NCBI RefSeq assembly: GCF_017348835.2
Contig: NZ_CP071375.1
DNA length: 64,000 nt
Strand: one strand, 5' to 3'
From: Escherichia coli
GTDB taxonomy: Bacteria; Pseudomonadota; Gammaproteobacteria; Enterobacterales; Enterobacteriaceae
Shown in pieces: positions 27,201 to 33,200 of this stretch. The position numbers are program-made. Position 1 is the stretch's first letter. Each line of letters starts with the position of its first letter.

Positions 27201-30200
27201 GCGATCCCGCCAGGCTTCAGGGGGTAACTGACCATGAAAAATATTGCGGCAGGCGGCATTCTTGAACGTATCCGCAGACTGGCCCCGCCACATGTAACCG
27301 CCCCATTCAAAACGGTAGCGGAGTGGCGCGAGTGGCAACTTTCCGAAGGCCAGAAACGTTGTGAGGAGATCAACCGTCAGAATCGTCAGTTGCGGGTGGA
27401 AAAAATTCTGAATCGCTCCGGCATCCAGCCGTTGCACCGCAAATGCTCGTTTTCGAATTACCAGGTGCAGAACGAAGGGCAGCGATACGCGTTGAGTCAG
27501 GCGAAATCCATCGCTGATGAACTGATGACCGGGTGTACAAATTTTGCGTTCAGCGGAAAACCTGGTACCGGAAAAAACCATCTGGCGGCGGCTATCGGGA
27601 ATCGCCTGCTGAAAGATGGCCAGACAGTGATTGTGGTTACCGTGGCTGATGTCATGAGTGCCCTACACGCCAGCTATGACGACGGGCAATCAGGCGAAAA
27701 ATTTTTGCGGGAACTGTGCCAAGTGGATCTGCTGGTTCTTGATGAAATTGGCATTCAGCGCGAGACAAAAAACGAGCAGGTGGTGCTGCACCAGATTGTT
27801 GATCGCCGGACAGCGTCGATGCGCAGCGTGGGGATGCTGACAAACCTGAATTATGAGGCCATGAAAACATTGCTCGGCGAGAGGATTATGGATCGCATGA
27901 CCATGAACGGCGGGCGATGGGTGAATTTTAACTGGGAGAGCTGGCGTCCGAATGTCGTCCAGCCAGGAATTGCGAAGTAATTTTTACCGGGAGAAAAATT
28001 TAATGGAGACTGTTTTTGACGCACTGAAAGCAATGGGAAAAGCTACATCCATAGAACTTGCTGCGCGACTTGATATCAGCCGTGAAGAAGTGCTGAACGA
28101 ACTATGGGAACTGAAAAAGGCTGGTTTCGTTGATAAAAGCGCGTACACCTGGCGTGTGGCTGATAACAACGTTCAGCAGGAACAGCCAGCGCCGGCAGAA
28201 CTGCCGGAAGAAACTACCACGGCAACAGTCGCGAAAATTTCAGAGAGCGATTTAACTGCGACGATTGAACAACGTGGTCCACTAACTGCGGATGAACTGG
28301 CTACGTTGTTCGGTACCACATCCCGCAAAGTGGCTTCAACGCTGGCAATGGCAATCAGCAAAGCTCGTCTGATTCGCGTTAATCAGAACGGTAAATTTCG
28401 TTACTGCATGCCGGGCGGTAATTTACCAGCAGAGCCGAAAGCTGCATCGGTAGCGGAAACAGATGGTAAAGCCTTTCCTCAGCTAGCCGGTGTTGCGTTA
28501 CCAGTACAGGAAGCTGCAACACAGGAAGATATTAAAACAGAAACTGTGGCGGACATTGTGCAGTCGTTGCCATCGTTTACTGAAACGCAAGCGGATAACC
28601 TGATTTTACCATCGCTGCATATGGCAAACCGTGAACTGCGTCGGGCGAAAAATCATGTCCAGAAGTGGGAGCGAGTCTGCGCCGCGCTGCGGGAGCTGAA
28701 CAAGCACCGGGATATTGTTCGACAGATTACTGATTCTTCCCGCCGTGTTGTATCGGAAAAGTGATTGCCGGAGGCGCTTATGGCAAAAGTATTTACACAA
28801 GAAGAGCGGGAAAAAATTAAAGGGCAGGTTGTTGAACTAGTACGCCGGAGTGGGCGCGAGACGTTACGGCAACTGGAAGCCAAGACAGGTGCGACAAGAT
28901 ATCTGATGAGCGTTCTCGCCAGAGAGCTGGTTGCCAGTGGCGATGTATACAACTCTGGTTACGGGTTATTCCCGTCTGAACAGGCTCGTAAGGACTGGCA
29001 AAATGCCCGCAAAAAACTATCTAGGGCAAAGGTGAAGAAACCATCTGTGGTTGATCCGGACCTTATCTGGTCATTACCAGACGGAGAAATACGCCGCTAC
29101 GACAGGCGTCTGAACATAATCTGTCGCGAGTGCCGGAAGAGCGAAGTTATGCAGCGTGTGCTGGCGTTTTATCAGAATGGTTTTCGAGAGAGGCTTGGAG
29201 ATCAGGGATGAATAGAACGATGAAGGATGGAAGCTACATATTCTCGGTACTAAGATTTATTTTTCTGACACAAAATGACCATTTGGCGTTACATAATCCC
29301 AAAAAAACGTATCAAAAATCTCAAAATGCGTTACGATTAGAGAGTATTTTGATTCTGCGTGCTCATTTTTTGATTGCTGTGGCTTTTTGTTGTGGGAGTG
29401 TTGAATGGATTATTTATCAGAAGTGTTAAAAATCATTGAAGGTGCAACAAAGGCAAATGCTTCGATGGCTAGTAATTATGCTGGGTTGCTGGCAGATAAG
29501 CTCGAACAAAAAGGGGAGGTCAAGCAAGCCAGAATGATAAGAGAAAGGTTGCTTAGAGCTCCCCAGGCGTTGGCAGGAGCTCAAAGGGCTGGAGGTGGGA
29601 TATCTCTGGGCTCATTACCGGTAGATATTGATAGTCGACTCAACACTGTTGATGTCAGTTATCCTAAATTAGACAGTTCAGAGATTTTTCTGCCTGCAGC
29701 AATCAGTACCCGTGTTGAAGAGTTTATCACTAATGTTCAACGTTATGATGAGTTTGTTAAAGCTGATGCAGCATTGCCGAGTCGTATGCTCGTGTATGGA
29801 AAGCCAGGAACAGGTAAGACTATGTTATCTAAGTACATCGCTACCCGCTTAGATTTTCCACTTCTTACAGTGCGTTGCGATACTTTGATTAGTAGTTTAT
29901 TGGGACAAACCAGCAAAAATCTTAGACAGGTTTTCGATTATGTAATGCAGAGGCCATCAGTGCTTTTTTTAGACGAATTTGATGCTTTAGCTGGAGCAAG
30001 AGGTAATGAGAGAGATATAGGTGAGCTTCAGCGAGTTGTCATTTCACTATTGCAGAATATGGATGCGGCATCAGAGGATACGGTAATTATTGCCTCAACT
30101 AACCATGAGCAACTTCTGGATCCTGCAATCTGGAGGCGATTTAGCTTCAGAATTCCAATGCCTCTGCCTGACATACATCAGAGAGAGTTAATTTGGAAAA

Positions 30201-33200
30201 ATCGTTTAAAGAATATGATATGTAGCGATCTAGATTTAAGTGATTTATCAAGAAAATCGGAAGGATTATCCGGAGCAATAATTGAACAGGTGAGCTTGGA
30301 TGCACGTAGGGATGCAGTTATTGAAGGTGCAAGTGTGATAAATCACCACAAATTGTATAGGCGTTTGTATCTTGCTCAATCGCTTATGGAAGGTGTAAAT
30401 TTAAGCACTTACGAAGATGAAATTCGTTGGTTACGTTCTAAAGATAAAAAATTATTTTCTATCAGAGTTCTTGCTAATTTGTACAAACTTACATCAAGAG
30501 TAATTTCAAACATTCTGAAGGAGTCAGGAGCATATGAGCAGAAGGGGTACACAGTTTAGTAACGCAAAAGTTACAAACCCAACGTTAAGAATCCCTTTTT
30601 CCAGTAGTGACTTGGGTGCAATAGTAAACGCTGGCGGTGGGGCAAAGGTATTGGTTGATGTAACAGCCGAATATAGACAAGGGCTAGTAAGAAATTTAAC
30701 AACCAGTAAACATTATTTAGAATCCAAACTTTCAGAGTACCCTGGAAGCTTGGGTACTTTGGTTTTCAAATTAAGAGACCAGGGAATAGCCAAAACGCAT
30801 AGGCCGAACAAAATTGCTCAAGAGGCTGGATTGCAAAATGCCGGTCATGCCAAAATAGATGAAATGTTGGTTGCTGCTCATGCCGGCTGTTTTGACGTAT
30901 TAGAGTCAGTCATTTTAAATCGGAATATTAAAGCGATTTTGGCTAATCTAAGCGCGATTGAGCGCATTGAACCTTGGGATGAGAATAGGAAGGTTCCGGG
31001 AGGCACTGATGGTTTGTTTGAATCATCAAACATCCTTGTACGACTATTTGAGTACACAGGTGAAGATGCAACTTACAACAACTATGAAAACGTTATTTCT
31101 ATATTAGAACAATACGGAGTTAAATATGATGAAATTAGACAAAAATGTGGTCTTCCCTTATTAAGGATAATGGATTTATCCCCAAGTGATAGATATATAT
31201 TAGACATTCTCATTGATTACCCGGGTATAAGAACGTTAATTCCAGAACCAAAATATTCAGCATTCCCGGTTAGTGTAAGTGATTCTGTTGGCATTGAAAC
31301 AAATAGCTTTCCCGTACCATCAGAAGAATTACCCATTGTTGCTGTATTTGACACTGGGGTAAGCCCCATCGCGGCAACAATTACTCCTTGGGTAGTGAGT
31401 AGGGAAACATACGTAATTCCTCCTGATACGAGTTATGAACATGGGACTATGGTGTCTTCATTGATATCAGGCGCTCATTTTTTAAATGACAATCATCCAT
31501 GGATTCCTGATACAAAATCTAAAATCCATGATGTTTGTGCTTTAGATGAAAATGGATCTTATATATCAGATTTAATTCTGAGGCTAGCAGATGCTGTAAA
31601 TAAAAGACCAGATATAAAAGTCTGGAATTTGTCTTTGGGAGGCGGACCATGTAATGAGCAGATGTTTAGTGATTTTGCGATGGAGTTAGATCGGCTCAGC
31701 GATAAATTTGGTATTTTGTTTGTAGTTGCTGCAGGTAATTATGTAGATGAACCTATACGTACATGGCCAAATCCTGATCCGCTTGGAGGTGCTGATTTAA
31801 TTTCCTCTCCTGGAGAGTCAGTCCGAGCACTAACAGTTGGTTCAGTTTCTCATATGGAAGCTAATGATGCTTTAAGTGAAATTGGAACACCGACACCATA
31901 TACTCGTCGTGGCCCTGGTCCTGTATTTACTCCAAAGCCAGATATAATCCATGCTGGCGGTGGGGTTCATAGACCTTGGAATGTAGGAGCAAGCAGTTTA
32001 AAGGTCGTAGGGCCAGATAATAGGCTTTGCTCTAATTTTGGTACTAGTTTTGCTGCTCCAATTGTGGCAAGTTTAGCTGCGCATACATGGCAGAGAATAG
32101 CCACTAATTCAGACTTTAATGTTTCACCATCATTGATTAAAGCATTATTAATTCATTCCGCTCAATTATCTTCTCCTGATTACTCGCCAAGTGAAAGACG
32201 CTATTTGGGAGCGGGAATTCCTAATGAGGTTATTGAGACCTTATATGATAGTGATGATAGGTTTACTCTGATTTTCCAAACATTCTTGGTTCCTGGGGTG
32301 AGGTGGAGAAAGGAAAACTATCCCATACCATCGGCACTTATTCAAAATGGAAAATTTAAAGGTGAGATTGTAATTACTGCTGCATATGCACCACCACTAA
32401 ACCCTAATGCCGGCAGTGAATATGTTCGCGCGAACGTAGAGCTAAGTTTTGGCTTAATTGAGAATAATACTATAAAAGGAAAAGTGCCTATGGAAGGAGA
32501 AAACGGTCAATCTGGATATGAGAGAGCTCAAATTGAGCATGGTGGAAAGTGGTCACCAGTAAAAATTCATCGCAAGGCATTTAATAAAGGAATTACTTCG
32601 GGTAACTGGGCTCTTCAGGCTAAAACAACGTTGAGAGCGAATGAACCGGCCTTAATGGAGCCTTTACCTGTAACTATTGTAGTAACTTTAAAATCATTAG
32701 ATGGAAACACACAAGTTTATGCTGATGGTGTAAGAGCTTTAAATGCTAATAACTGGGCTCACTATCCATTGCCTGCTCGTGTGCCAGTTTCCGTATAACA
32801 ACTATATAAATCAAACCCGCTGTAGCGGGTTTGATTTATTTGTGGGTGTGTTTTATAAAAATACCGCCCATACACAACAAAATACAAAAAGTATTACAGA
32901 TAAAAAAGGAGCGTAATGTGCAGATTTGTTGTTTTCCATATTTACTCACCTTAATATGATTAATCCTGATAAGATTGTTATTTCAGCGGTTTTCAAATGA
33001 GATATTATGCTAATCTGGCAGATTTGCATAACATTAAAATTTAATTTGTCTAACCGCTTTTAATAATAAGCGTTGTATTTTTATCCCAGCAATCTATTGT
33101 TTGATTTTTATTCCATCAATGTGGGGGCTTTACACTGGAACCAGTTTATTTATACTTTATACGTCAGCCTGAACAACTGGCATCTGCTGCACTGCGCCAT

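What the first reader, a model, noticed from the sequence alone, without database searches (positions are those of the whole stretch)
29405..32798. AT-rich two-gene cassette: classical AAA+ ATPase translationally coupled to a large subtilisin-like protease - candidate undescribed defence/abortive-infection module
Seen in sequence: the 384-aa ATPase has complete Walker A/B, sensor-1 and Arg-finger motifs behind a ~110-aa N-terminal domain with no recognisable motif. The 754-aa second protein has a complete S8 catalytic set (Asp in VAVFDTG, His in HGTMVSS, Asn in AAGNY, Ser in GTSFAAP) flanked by ~270 N-terminal and ~250 C-terminal residues of unknown function. The genes overlap by 26 bp with an AGGAG RBS inside the ATPase 3' end, are followed by a terminator, and look markedly more AT-rich by eye than the neighbouring genes (GC not computed). 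They occupy the slot where K-12 Rac carries the rzpR/rzoR remnants. Inference: an NTPase paired with a protease effector, carried as an accessory insert in a prophage variable region, fits the architecture of phage-defence systems (ATPase as sensor or unfoldase, protease as effector). I cannot assign it to a named system from memory.
Basis: partly seen in the sequence, partly recalled or inferred. Interest (0 to 1): 0.85.

Follow-up and report, generated by a model that had tools for sequence, protein, structure and literature searches.

The report
Known IetAS anti-phage module in Rac
The two genes are real and intact, but they are the already described IetA/IetS (IteA/IteS) ATPase–protease toxin–antitoxin anti-phage system, carried as accessory cargo in a Rac-type prophage, so this is a correct observation of a known system and not a new one.

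Summary
Window 29405-30559 (384 aa AAA+ ATPase) and 30534-32798 (754 aa S8 protease) overlap by 26 bp. An AGGAG lies before the second ATG, a hairpin terminator follows at 32806-32839, and GC is 0.40 against about 0.50 in the flanks.

The "undescribed" interpretation is not supported. Both proteins exceed the curated NCBIfam equivalog cut-offs for IteA (526.6 vs 510 bits) and IteS (1042.8 vs 900 bits). Both match the PADLOC IetA/IetS models end to end (E 9e-143 and 2e-300). The identical cassette is already annotated iteA/iteS in RefSeq, in 77 of 5,426 complete E. coli genomes. It also sits at the same position in phage vB_EcoS-683R6.

In the literature, IetAS is a protease-toxin/ATPase-antitoxin pair first found on pTiC58. 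It was later shown to defend against phages by abortive infection. Its molecular mechanism was still called unknown in April 2026.

The cassette is a self-contained moron (about 29187-32851) in the variable slot between the Ren-like gene and ninB. The pair recurs, always overlapping, in Pseudomonas islands, Tn7-like elements and Klebsiella prophages.

Small additions from this work: an HTH-like tail and a non-aromatic pore loop in IetA, propeptide-like units in IetS, and a conserved leader block.

Novelty: already known. Interest is low.

The parts
29187..29404 (+). Cassette leader (5' boundary of the mobile cargo to the iteA ATG), non-coding, GC 0.35. It contains a 37-nt block (29301-29337, AAAAAAACGTATCAAAAATCTCAAAATGCGTTACGAT) conserved with the Klebsiella copy, and a GGGAG RBS at 29394-29398.
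   Evidence: Homology to prophages carrying other cargo stops at about 29175-29186. The alignment of the E. coli, phage 683R6 and Klebsiella leaders shows the conserved block amid diverged sequence with frame-breaking indels, so the overlapping 99-aa ORF 29130-29429 is unlikely to be a gene. No sigma-70 consensus was found in either leader, so the promoter is unassigned.
29405..30559 (+). iteA/ietA: 384-aa classical-clade AAA+ ATPase, the antitoxin/regulator. Domains: N-terminal three-helix bundle aa 2-62 (nt 29408-29590), disordered linker, AAA+ large domain and lid aa 98-329 (nt 29696-30391), and a C-terminal three-helix HTH-like unit aa 336-372 (nt 30410-30520).
   Evidence: NCBIfam NF042959 IteA_antiphage 526.6 bits against a cut-off of 510. 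PADLOC IetA E 8.9e-143 over aa 1-374. Pfam AAA. AF2 model pLDDT 78.5. Foldseek best hits are FtsH, PAN, p97-D2, Rpt subunits and Vps4. Motif conservation.
30519..30530 (+). Two AGGAG Shine-Dalgarno motifs for iteS, inside the 3' end of iteA. The 26-bp gene overlap is 30534-30559.
   Evidence: Sequence. The overlap is conserved at 26-41 nt in five independent loci from four genera.
30534..32798 (+). iteS/ietS: 754-aa cytoplasmic S8 (subtilisin-like) serine protease, the toxin/effector. Domains: N-terminal alpha/beta region aa 1-250 (nt 30534-31283), S8 catalytic domain about aa 265-560 (nt 31326-32213), and a C-terminal beta-sandwich about aa 575-740 (nt 32256-32753).
32806..32839 (.). Intrinsic-terminator hairpin closing the cassette. 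The 3' boundary of the mobile cargo is at about 32851.
   Evidence: An equivalent hairpin follows the Klebsiella copy. Homology to alternative-cargo locus L005 resumes at 32852.

Best explanation
This is a canonical two-gene IetAS (IteA/IteS) system. It is a toxin-antitoxin-type, abortive-infection anti-phage module carried as a self-contained moron (own leader, two overlapping genes, own terminator) in the ren/ninB variable slot of a defective Rac-type prophage.

Shown here: family membership, intact catalytic sites, cytoplasmic location, conserved gene pairing and overlap, and a mobile-element context.

Taken from the literature on homologues: IetS, the subtilisin-like protease, is the toxic effector. 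IetA, the AAA+ ATPase, is needed to keep it non-toxic. Protease activity is needed for defence. A phage protein can trigger toxicity, and infected cultures collapse at high MOI, which indicates abortive infection.

Inferred: in uninfected cells, IetA, made in fixed ratio with IetS through translational coupling, uses ATP to hold or remodel IetS in an inactive state. This may work through the propeptide-like N-terminal units of IetS. A phage product or a phage-induced perturbation then disables or diverts IetA. Free IetS cleaves essential cytoplasmic proteins, which stops growth and aborts the infection. The same addiction logic would also stabilise the prophage.
For: Membership: PADLOC, and NCBIfam equivalogs above the curated cut-offs; identical DNA annotated iteA/iteS; 77 of 5,426 complete E. 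coli genomes.

Intact enzymes.

IetA belongs to the protein-remodelling classical AAA clade.

IetS is cytoplasmic, with an S8 core plus extra domains.

The pair is always together and overlapping, always on mobile or defence contexts: a Pseudomonas island with Fic, NERD and AAA_15/21 neighbours, Tn7-like cargo in Comamonas, and a Klebsiella lambdoid prophage; an Acidovorax plasmid; Rac-like phage vB_EcoS-683R6 at the same slot; and dedicated PHROG families.

Moron structure and a variable slot holding other cargo such as hokD.

[quoted passage not shown] Abortive infection, with triggering by SPbeta yosG, was shown for the B. cereus system (bioRxiv 10.1101/2022.08.27.505566). E. coli ECOR52 ietAS was tested, located in prophages, and synergised with Zorya II (bioRxiv 10.1101/2022.08.21.504612). 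A Mycoplasma AAA/S8 pair is a functional TA system in which loss of the ATPase alone is lethal (PMC8562856).
Against: No experiment exists on this exact allele in what I could read. I did not verify that the ECOR52 system tested by Wu et al. is the same allele, and that system alone gave only limited protection.

The IteA score exceeds its curated cut-off only narrowly (526.6 vs 510 bits).

No promoter consensus was found in the leader. The prophage here has also lost its immunity region and early promoter. Expression is therefore assumed, not shown.

How IetA neutralises IetS, what the trigger is for coliphages, and what IetS cleaves are all unknown. The invariant pore-loop S-L-L-G lacks the aromatic residue typical of threading unfoldases, so a simple 'unfoldase' picture may be wrong.
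Confidence: 0.9

Rival explanations
1. The module is primarily an addiction (post-segregational killing) module that stabilises the Rac element. Anti-phage activity would be incidental or absent for this allele.
For: IetAS was first described as the stability and incompatibility determinant of plasmid pTiC58 (Yamamoto 2009, as cited in PMC13069673 and PMC8562856). The Mycoplasma homologue behaves as a chromosomal TA pair. The E. coli ECOR52 system alone gave limited phage protection. The Rac element here is heavily decayed yet keeps the cassette intact.
Against: Homologues do protect against phages, and the protection depends on protease activity. The cassette sits in a slot that also carries other exclusion and TA cargo, and it recurs in defence-island-like neighbourhoods. 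The two roles are not mutually exclusive.
Confidence: 0.3
2. It is a phage lytic-cycle function: a protease with its chaperone used by the Rac-like phage for its own development or host takeover, not for host defence.
For: In the intact phage vB_EcoS-683R6, and in the Klebsiella prophages, the pair lies in the early-right operon between the replication genes and the nin/Q genes. It would therefore be transcribed during lytic growth.
Against: The same pair occurs outside phages, in Tn7-like transposons, a genomic island and a plasmid. It has its own leader and terminator and a foreign base composition. Most Rac-like prophages lack it and carry unrelated cargo in the same slot. Only 1 of 50,697 deposited phage genomes carries a close copy.
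Confidence: 0.04
3. It is a secreted or housekeeping subtilase with a dedicated maturation ATPase.
For: S8 proteases are commonly secreted. There are weak sub-threshold resemblances to the type VII secretion mycosin and EccA (26.9 and 24 bits).
Against: IetS has no signal peptide or TM segment. The mycosin and EccA scores are far below their cut-offs of 278 and 466 bits. No secretion genes are nearby, and every context examined is a mobile element.
Confidence: 0.01

Closest known systems
IetAS / IteA-IteS anti-phage system (PADLOC ietAS; NCBIfam NF042959 + NF042956; DefenseFinder 'Gao_Iet' from my own knowledge). Described as a TA system on pTiC58 (Yamamoto et al. 2009) and as a defence system (Gao et al. 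2020), both cited.
   Same: Everything testable here matches: a full-length match of both proteins above the curated cut-offs, gene order A then S, overlapping genes, intact Walker/sensor/Arg-finger motifs and the D-H-N-S catalytic set, and carriage on a mobile element. The DNA is 99.4-100 % identical across the 25 best of the 77 complete E. coli genomes that hold the cassette, all of them annotated iteA/iteS.
   Different: Nothing that defines the family. The only specifics are the location (the ren/ninB slot of a decayed Rac prophage that has lost its immunity region) and the fact that this allele's phage spectrum was not verified here.
ietHAS (Liu-DS4): IetAS with an added SNF2-family helicase IetH (PMC13069673)
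   Same: It shares the IetA and IetS components and the toxin-antitoxin logic.
   Different: There is no helicase gene next to the cassette. The upstream neighbour is a Ren-like DUF977 gene and the downstream neighbour is ninB-like. This is therefore the canonical two-gene form.
Mycoplasma AAA-ATPase/subtilisin-like protease TA pair (MMCAP2_0132/0133; PMC8562856)
   Same: The architecture and sizes match (353-aa AAA and 757-aa S8), the ATPase gene comes first, the protease is toxic, and the ATPase is protective.
   Different: It sits on the chromosome of a minimal genome and has been studied as a TA pair or kill switch with no phage data. I did not measure the sequence relationship to the E. 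coli proteins.
Classical-clade AAA+ unfoldases (FtsH, PAN/Rpt, p97/Cdc48 D2, Vps4)
   Same: The IetA ATPase module has the same fold and motifs (phmmer E about 1e-53 to p97; Foldseek E about 1e-15 and TM about 0.85 on the PAN module).
   Different: IetA is a single AAA module with its own three-helix N-domain and an HTH-like C-terminal unit. Its pore-loop-1 is an invariant S-L-L-G with no aromatic residue. It is not fused to, and is not known to feed, a compartmental protease.
TRIP13/Pch2-HORMA regulators of CBASS
   Same: There are weak PADLOC hits of IetA to the TRIP13 models (E 2.4e-16). Both are AAA+ remodelers attached to a defence effector.
   Different: No HORMA or CD-NTase genes are present. 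The hit reflects only the shared AAA core and is more than 120 orders of magnitude weaker than the IetA hit.

Membership tests
IetAS (IteA/IteS) | IetA-type AAA+ ATPase recognised by the family model above its curated threshold | tested here: met
   NF042959 IteA_antiphage (equivalog) 526.6 bits against a cut-off of 510, covering aa 1-367 of a 367-position model. PADLOC PDLC02196 IetA E 8.9e-143, aa 1-374. The margin over the NCBIfam cut-off is small.
IetAS (IteA/IteS) | IetS-type S8 peptidase recognised by the family model above its curated threshold | tested here: met
   NF042956 IteS_antiphage (equivalog) 1042.8 bits against a cut-off of 900, covering aa 15-752 of a 747-position model. PADLOC PDLC02197 IetS E 1.7e-300.
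IetAS (IteA/IteS) | Two genes adjacent and co-directional, with the ATPase gene upstream of the protease gene | tested here: met
   29405-30559 and 30534-32798, both on the + strand, with a 26-bp overlap. The same arrangement is seen in five other loci.
IetAS (IteA/IteS) | Catalytically competent ATPase (Walker A/B, sensor-1, Arg fingers) and protease (Asp-His-Asn-Ser) | tested here: met
   All motifs are present and invariant across 37 and 40 homologues respectively.
IetAS (IteA/IteS) | Protease toxic when alone and neutralised by the ATPase (toxin-antitoxin behaviour) | not testable with these tools
   Known for homologues only.
IetAS (IteA/IteS) | Confers phage resistance by abortive infection, dependent on protease activity | not testable with these tools
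   Known for homologues: the B. cereus system, E. coli ECOR52 and ietHAS. This allele was not tested.
ietHAS variant | SNF2-family helicase gene ietH in the same operon | tested here: not met
   The neighbours are a Ren-like DUF977 gene and a NinB-like DUF1367 gene, with no helicase.
CBASS TRIP13-HORMA module | TRIP13-type ATPase together with HORMA and CD-NTase genes | tested here: not met
   There is only a weak AAA-core hit to the TRIP13 models. No HORMA or cyclase gene is in the annotated neighbourhood.
Type VII secretion mycosin/EccA | Mycosin and EccA family models above their cut-offs, in an ESX locus | tested here: not met
   Mycosin 26.9 bits against 278.75, EccA 24 bits against 466.65. 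No ESX genes are present, and IetS has no signal peptide or TM segment.

The most novel reading that the evidence does not exclude
The system is known but its mechanism is not, and the features seen here could point to one.

First, IetS carries propeptide-like beta-alpha-beta-beta-alpha-beta units directly upstream of its S8 domain. This fits a zymogen-like enzyme whose inhibitory N-region is kept in place, or reset, by IetA.

Second, IetA has an invariant non-aromatic pore loop (S-L-L-G) and a confident C-terminal three-helix HTH-like unit. It faces a 37-nt leader block conserved between genera. That would fit an ATP-dependent clamp that doubles as an autorepressor or DNA-linked sensor, and not a threading unfoldase.

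If this is right, IetAS would be a defence system in which an AAA+ protein controls a subtilase zymogen and its own operon.
Probability: 0.2. Interest if true: 0.45.

Novelty: already known. Interest (0 to 1): 0.1.

Why it matters
As a discovery it does not matter much. The cassette is a textbook copy of a named defence system that annotation pipelines already label. It is useful as a positive control for the scan, because a reader working from raw sequence correctly recognised a defence-type ATPase-protease moron in a prophage variable slot. The residual value is mechanistic. How IetA restrains IetS, what triggers release and what IetS cleaves were all still open in the literature I could read. 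This E. coli allele sits in a genetically tractable host and in an inducible Rac-like phage, which makes it a convenient model for those questions.

Tried and rejected
- **Primary papers.** I looked for Yamamoto 2009 (PMC2704731) and Gao 2020 (DOI and a guessed PMC id). Neither is held, so both are cited only through papers that quote them.
- **Mechanistic or structural IetAS papers.** I searched under the names ietAS, IteA, IteS and Gao_Iet and found none.
- **Solved structures.** There is none for an IetS-type protein, only weak S8-core hits.
- **Pfam families for the extensions.** I scanned the IetA N-domain and both IetS extensions, including all 40 IetS homologues one by one. Nothing was found beyond AAA and S8.
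- **The IetA C-terminal HTH idea.** Pfam gave only marginal HTH hits: HTH_36 at 1.9e-4 in 1 of 16 sequences, with HTH_28, HTH_23 and HTH_11 at 0.002-0.03. The idea rests on the AF2 model and remains unproven.
- **A sigma-70 promoter in the leader.** No consensus match was found in the E. coli or the Klebsiella copy. An inverted repeat in the E. coli leader does not look conserved in Klebsiella by eye in the alignment, so I dropped it.
- **The propeptide idea.** I wanted to test it on model coordinates, but coordinates are not exposed to scripts.
- **RNA genes.** Rfam and tRNA scans found nothing inside the cassette.
- **The small ORF 29130-29429 overlapping the iteA start.** I rejected it as a gene, because the Klebsiella leader differs by frame-breaking indels and RefSeq does not call it.
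- **Other systems considered and rejected.** CBASS-TRIP13, type VII secretion mycosin/EccA and a secreted subtilase were all considered and rejected (see the membership table).

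
Full report
**1. The observation**

The sequence before the second start codon is gaAGGAGtcAGGAGcatATG. A 15-bp-stem hairpin with a T-rich tail follows at 32806-32839.

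They are invariant in 37 IetA and 40 IetS homologues. Pfam confirms AAA (aa 128-253) and Peptidase_S8 (aa 268-544), and finds nothing on the extensions.

The AT-richness estimated by eye is real. GC is 0.40 and GC3 is 0.27-0.32 in the cassette. The flanking phage genes have GC 0.49-0.505 and GC3 0.45-0.61.

**2. What it is**

The defence-system and NCBI family libraries identify the pair at once.
- PADLOC IetA: E 8.9e-143, full length.
- PADLOC IetS: E 1.7e-300, full length.
- NCBIfam equivalog IteA_antiphage: 526.6 bits, cut-off 510.
- NCBIfam equivalog IteS_antiphage: 1042.8 bits, cut-off 900.

Window 9100-53250 is 99.995 % identical to E. coli PE164, a pig isolate. RefSeq annotates these very genes there as iteA and iteS. 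The full cassette is in 77 of 5,426 complete E. coli genomes. The 25 best copies are 99.4-100 % identical.

PHROGs has dedicated families for both proteins, phrog_3757 and phrog_3964, both labelled 'unknown function'.

**3. Context**

The cassette lies in a Rac-type prophage. Its attachment repeats are at about window 21097 and 46092-46134.

The gene order is: ydaU, DnaC-like ydaV, DUF1627, DUF977 (Ren-like exclusion protein), iteA, iteS, DUF1367 (NinB-like), DUF1364, DUF1133 (Q-like antiterminator), then the lysis genes and trkG.

K-12 Rac has a 9.2-kb deletion (window 28453-37642) that joins ydaW to rzpR. The true position is the ren/ninB junction.

That junction is a variable cargo slot. 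Other E. coli prophages with the same flanks carry hokD plus small hypotheticals there, or a DUF1971 gene plus a hypothetical.

Homology to those loci ends at about 29186 and resumes at 32852, just after the terminator. The mobile unit is thus leader, iteA, iteS and terminator, which is the classic structure of a moron.

The same cassette sits at the same place in the 55.7-kb Rac-like phage vB_EcoS-683R6, which still has its repressor, replication genes, Q, lysis genes and terminase.

**4. Does the pair travel together?**

Yes. In all six loci from three other genera that I examined, the AAA gene precedes and overlaps the S8 gene by 26-41 nt. The contexts are:
- a Pseudomonas aeruginosa island next to Fic, NERD and AAA_15/AAA_21 genes and an integrase-like gene;
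- the cargo of a Tn7-like transposon in Comamonas;
- the post-replication slot of a different lambdoid prophage in Klebsiella.

An Acidovorax plasmid also carries an annotated iteA/iteS pair. None of these contexts is housekeeping.

**5. What is known about the mechanism (literature)**

- IetAS was first described as a plasmid-stabilising toxin-antitoxin pair, with the serine protease as toxin and the ATPase as antitoxin. It was later found to be an anti-phage system. Protease activity is required for defence, and an ietA mutant could not be cloned. [quoted passage not shown]
- The B. cereus system becomes toxic when the SPbeta gene yosG is expressed. Cultures collapse at high MOI, which indicates abortive infection (bioRxiv 10.1101/2022.08.27.505566).
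- An E. coli ECOR52 system was cloned and gave limited protection alone, but synergised with Zorya II against T3. [quoted passage not shown]
- A Mycoplasma AAA/S8 pair is a functional TA system in which loss of the ATPase alone is lethal (PMC8562856).
- ietAS is common in porcine ETEC (PMC11267873).
- I found no structural or biochemical study.

**6. What the sequences and models add**

*IetA*
- Its ATPase module belongs to the classical protein-remodelling AAA clade. The closest relatives are p97 D2, FtsH, PAN/Rpt and Vps4.
- The pore-loop-1 position is an invariant S-L-L-G with no aromatic residue.
- The AF2 model (pLDDT 78.5) has an N-terminal three-helix bundle (aa 2-62, modest confidence) and a disordered linker. 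It also has a confident C-terminal three-helix unit (aa 336-372, pLDDT about 91) carrying the conserved FS.R.LA.LY.LS.R pattern.
- Pfam gives only marginal HTH hits on that C-terminal piece, so 'HTH-like' is a suggestion only.

*IetS*
- It has no signal peptide or TM segment.
- Its model (pLDDT 80.8, pTM 0.85) shows an alpha/beta N-region, the S8 core and a C-terminal beta-sandwich.
- Residues 167-237 have the beta-alpha-beta-beta-alpha-beta order of a subtilisin propeptide. That resemblance is inference. I could not inspect coordinates, and no sequence family supports it.

*Leader*
- It has no sigma-70 consensus.
- A 37-nt block (29301-29337) is nearly identical in the Klebsiella copy, although the rest of the leader has diverged.

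**7. Best explanation and rivals**

*Best explanation (confidence 0.9 for identity and general mode).* This is a canonical IetAS TA-type abortive-infection module.

The steps 'IetA holds IetS inactive using ATP', 'a phage product disables IetA' and 'free IetS cleaves essential cytoplasmic proteins' are inferred from homologues and from the anatomy.

*Rivals.*
- An addiction-only role in stabilising Rac is plausible and not exclusive.
- A phage lytic-cycle function is unlikely, because the pair also lives on transposons, islands and plasmids, and most Rac relatives lack it.
- A secreted subtilase is excluded, because IetS has no signal peptide and there are no secretion genes nearby.

*Caveat on expression.* This Rac copy has lost its immunity region and early promoter, and I could not identify the cassette's own promoter.

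**8. Verdict**

The finding is a correct reading of raw sequence, but the system is already known, named and routinely annotated.
- Novelty: already known.
- Interest: low (0.1).

The residual interest is that the molecular mechanism of IetAS is still open. This allele sits in E. coli and in an inducible phage, which makes it a convenient model.

Noticed in passing
window 26459-26460 (junction); compare K-12 locus L002 6951-12208: This Rac copy has lost the whole immunity and early region: the recE 5' part, racC, ydaE, kilR, sieB, ydaF, ydaG, racR, ydaS, ydaT and the start of ydaU. A truncated recE pseudogene now abuts ydaU. The right-operon genes, including the cassette, have therefore lost their normal phage promoter and repressor control.
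   Followed up: partly
window 22968-24277: An IS3-family element (transposase with programmed frameshift; Rfam ALIL pseudoknot at 23826-23942) is inserted with a 3-bp duplication near the 3' end of the ralR toxin gene, next to the intact RalA antitoxin sRNA (22754-22932). The annotated ralR ORF is altered (210 nt against 195 nt in K-12).
   Followed up: partly
window 42318-45938 (sitDCBA at about 42548-45732); attR core at 46092-46134: The sitABCD iron/manganese transporter operon (sitB annotated as a pseudogene) lies inside the Rac attachment-site boundaries. It replaces the pinR-ynaE-ynaM segment of K-12 Rac.
   Followed up: no
window 35856-36116 and 36288-36662: Between the Q-like antiterminator and the lysis genes there is a TolA fragment and an intact 124-aa 'TolA C-terminal domain-containing protein' (phrog_5772, unknown function). 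A prophage-encoded free TolA-III domain could act as a decoy against TolA-dependent phages or colicins. This was not examined.
   Followed up: no
window 35391-35577: There is an Rfam STnc100 sRNA match (86.6 bits, gathering score 47) in the AT-rich stretch downstream of the Q-like gene. In phage vB_EcoS-683R6 the corresponding region carries two tRNA genes instead (L003 13461-13611). The window has no tRNA genes at all.
   Followed up: no
loci L004 1939-4333 and L005 1939-4673 (same flanks as window 29187-33214): The ren/ninB slot of Rac-like prophages is a cargo hotspot. Other strains carry hokD plus four small hypotheticals there, or a DUF1971 gene plus an 810-nt hypothetical on the opposite strand. 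A survey of this slot across the roughly 4,200 E. coli genomes that have the flanks might yield further defence candidates.
   Followed up: partly
window 29301-29337: A 37-nt A-rich block in the iteA leader is almost invariant between the E. coli and Klebsiella copies, while the surrounding leader has diverged and carries indels. It is a candidate promoter or operator. No sigma-70 consensus overlaps it.
   Followed up: partly
window 30410-30520 (IetA aa 336-372) and 29891-29908 (IetA aa 163-168): IetA ends in a confidently modelled three-helix HTH-like unit that no family model covers. Its pore-loop-1 is an invariant S-L-L-G without the aromatic residue usual in threading AAA+ unfoldases. I did not find either point in the papers I could read.
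   Followed up: partly
[not shown]
   Followed up: partly
window 42094-42292: There is an Rfam IS009 match (223 bits) at the end of the tail-fibre assembly gene region, at the right edge of the K-12-homologous part of Rac.
   Followed up: no
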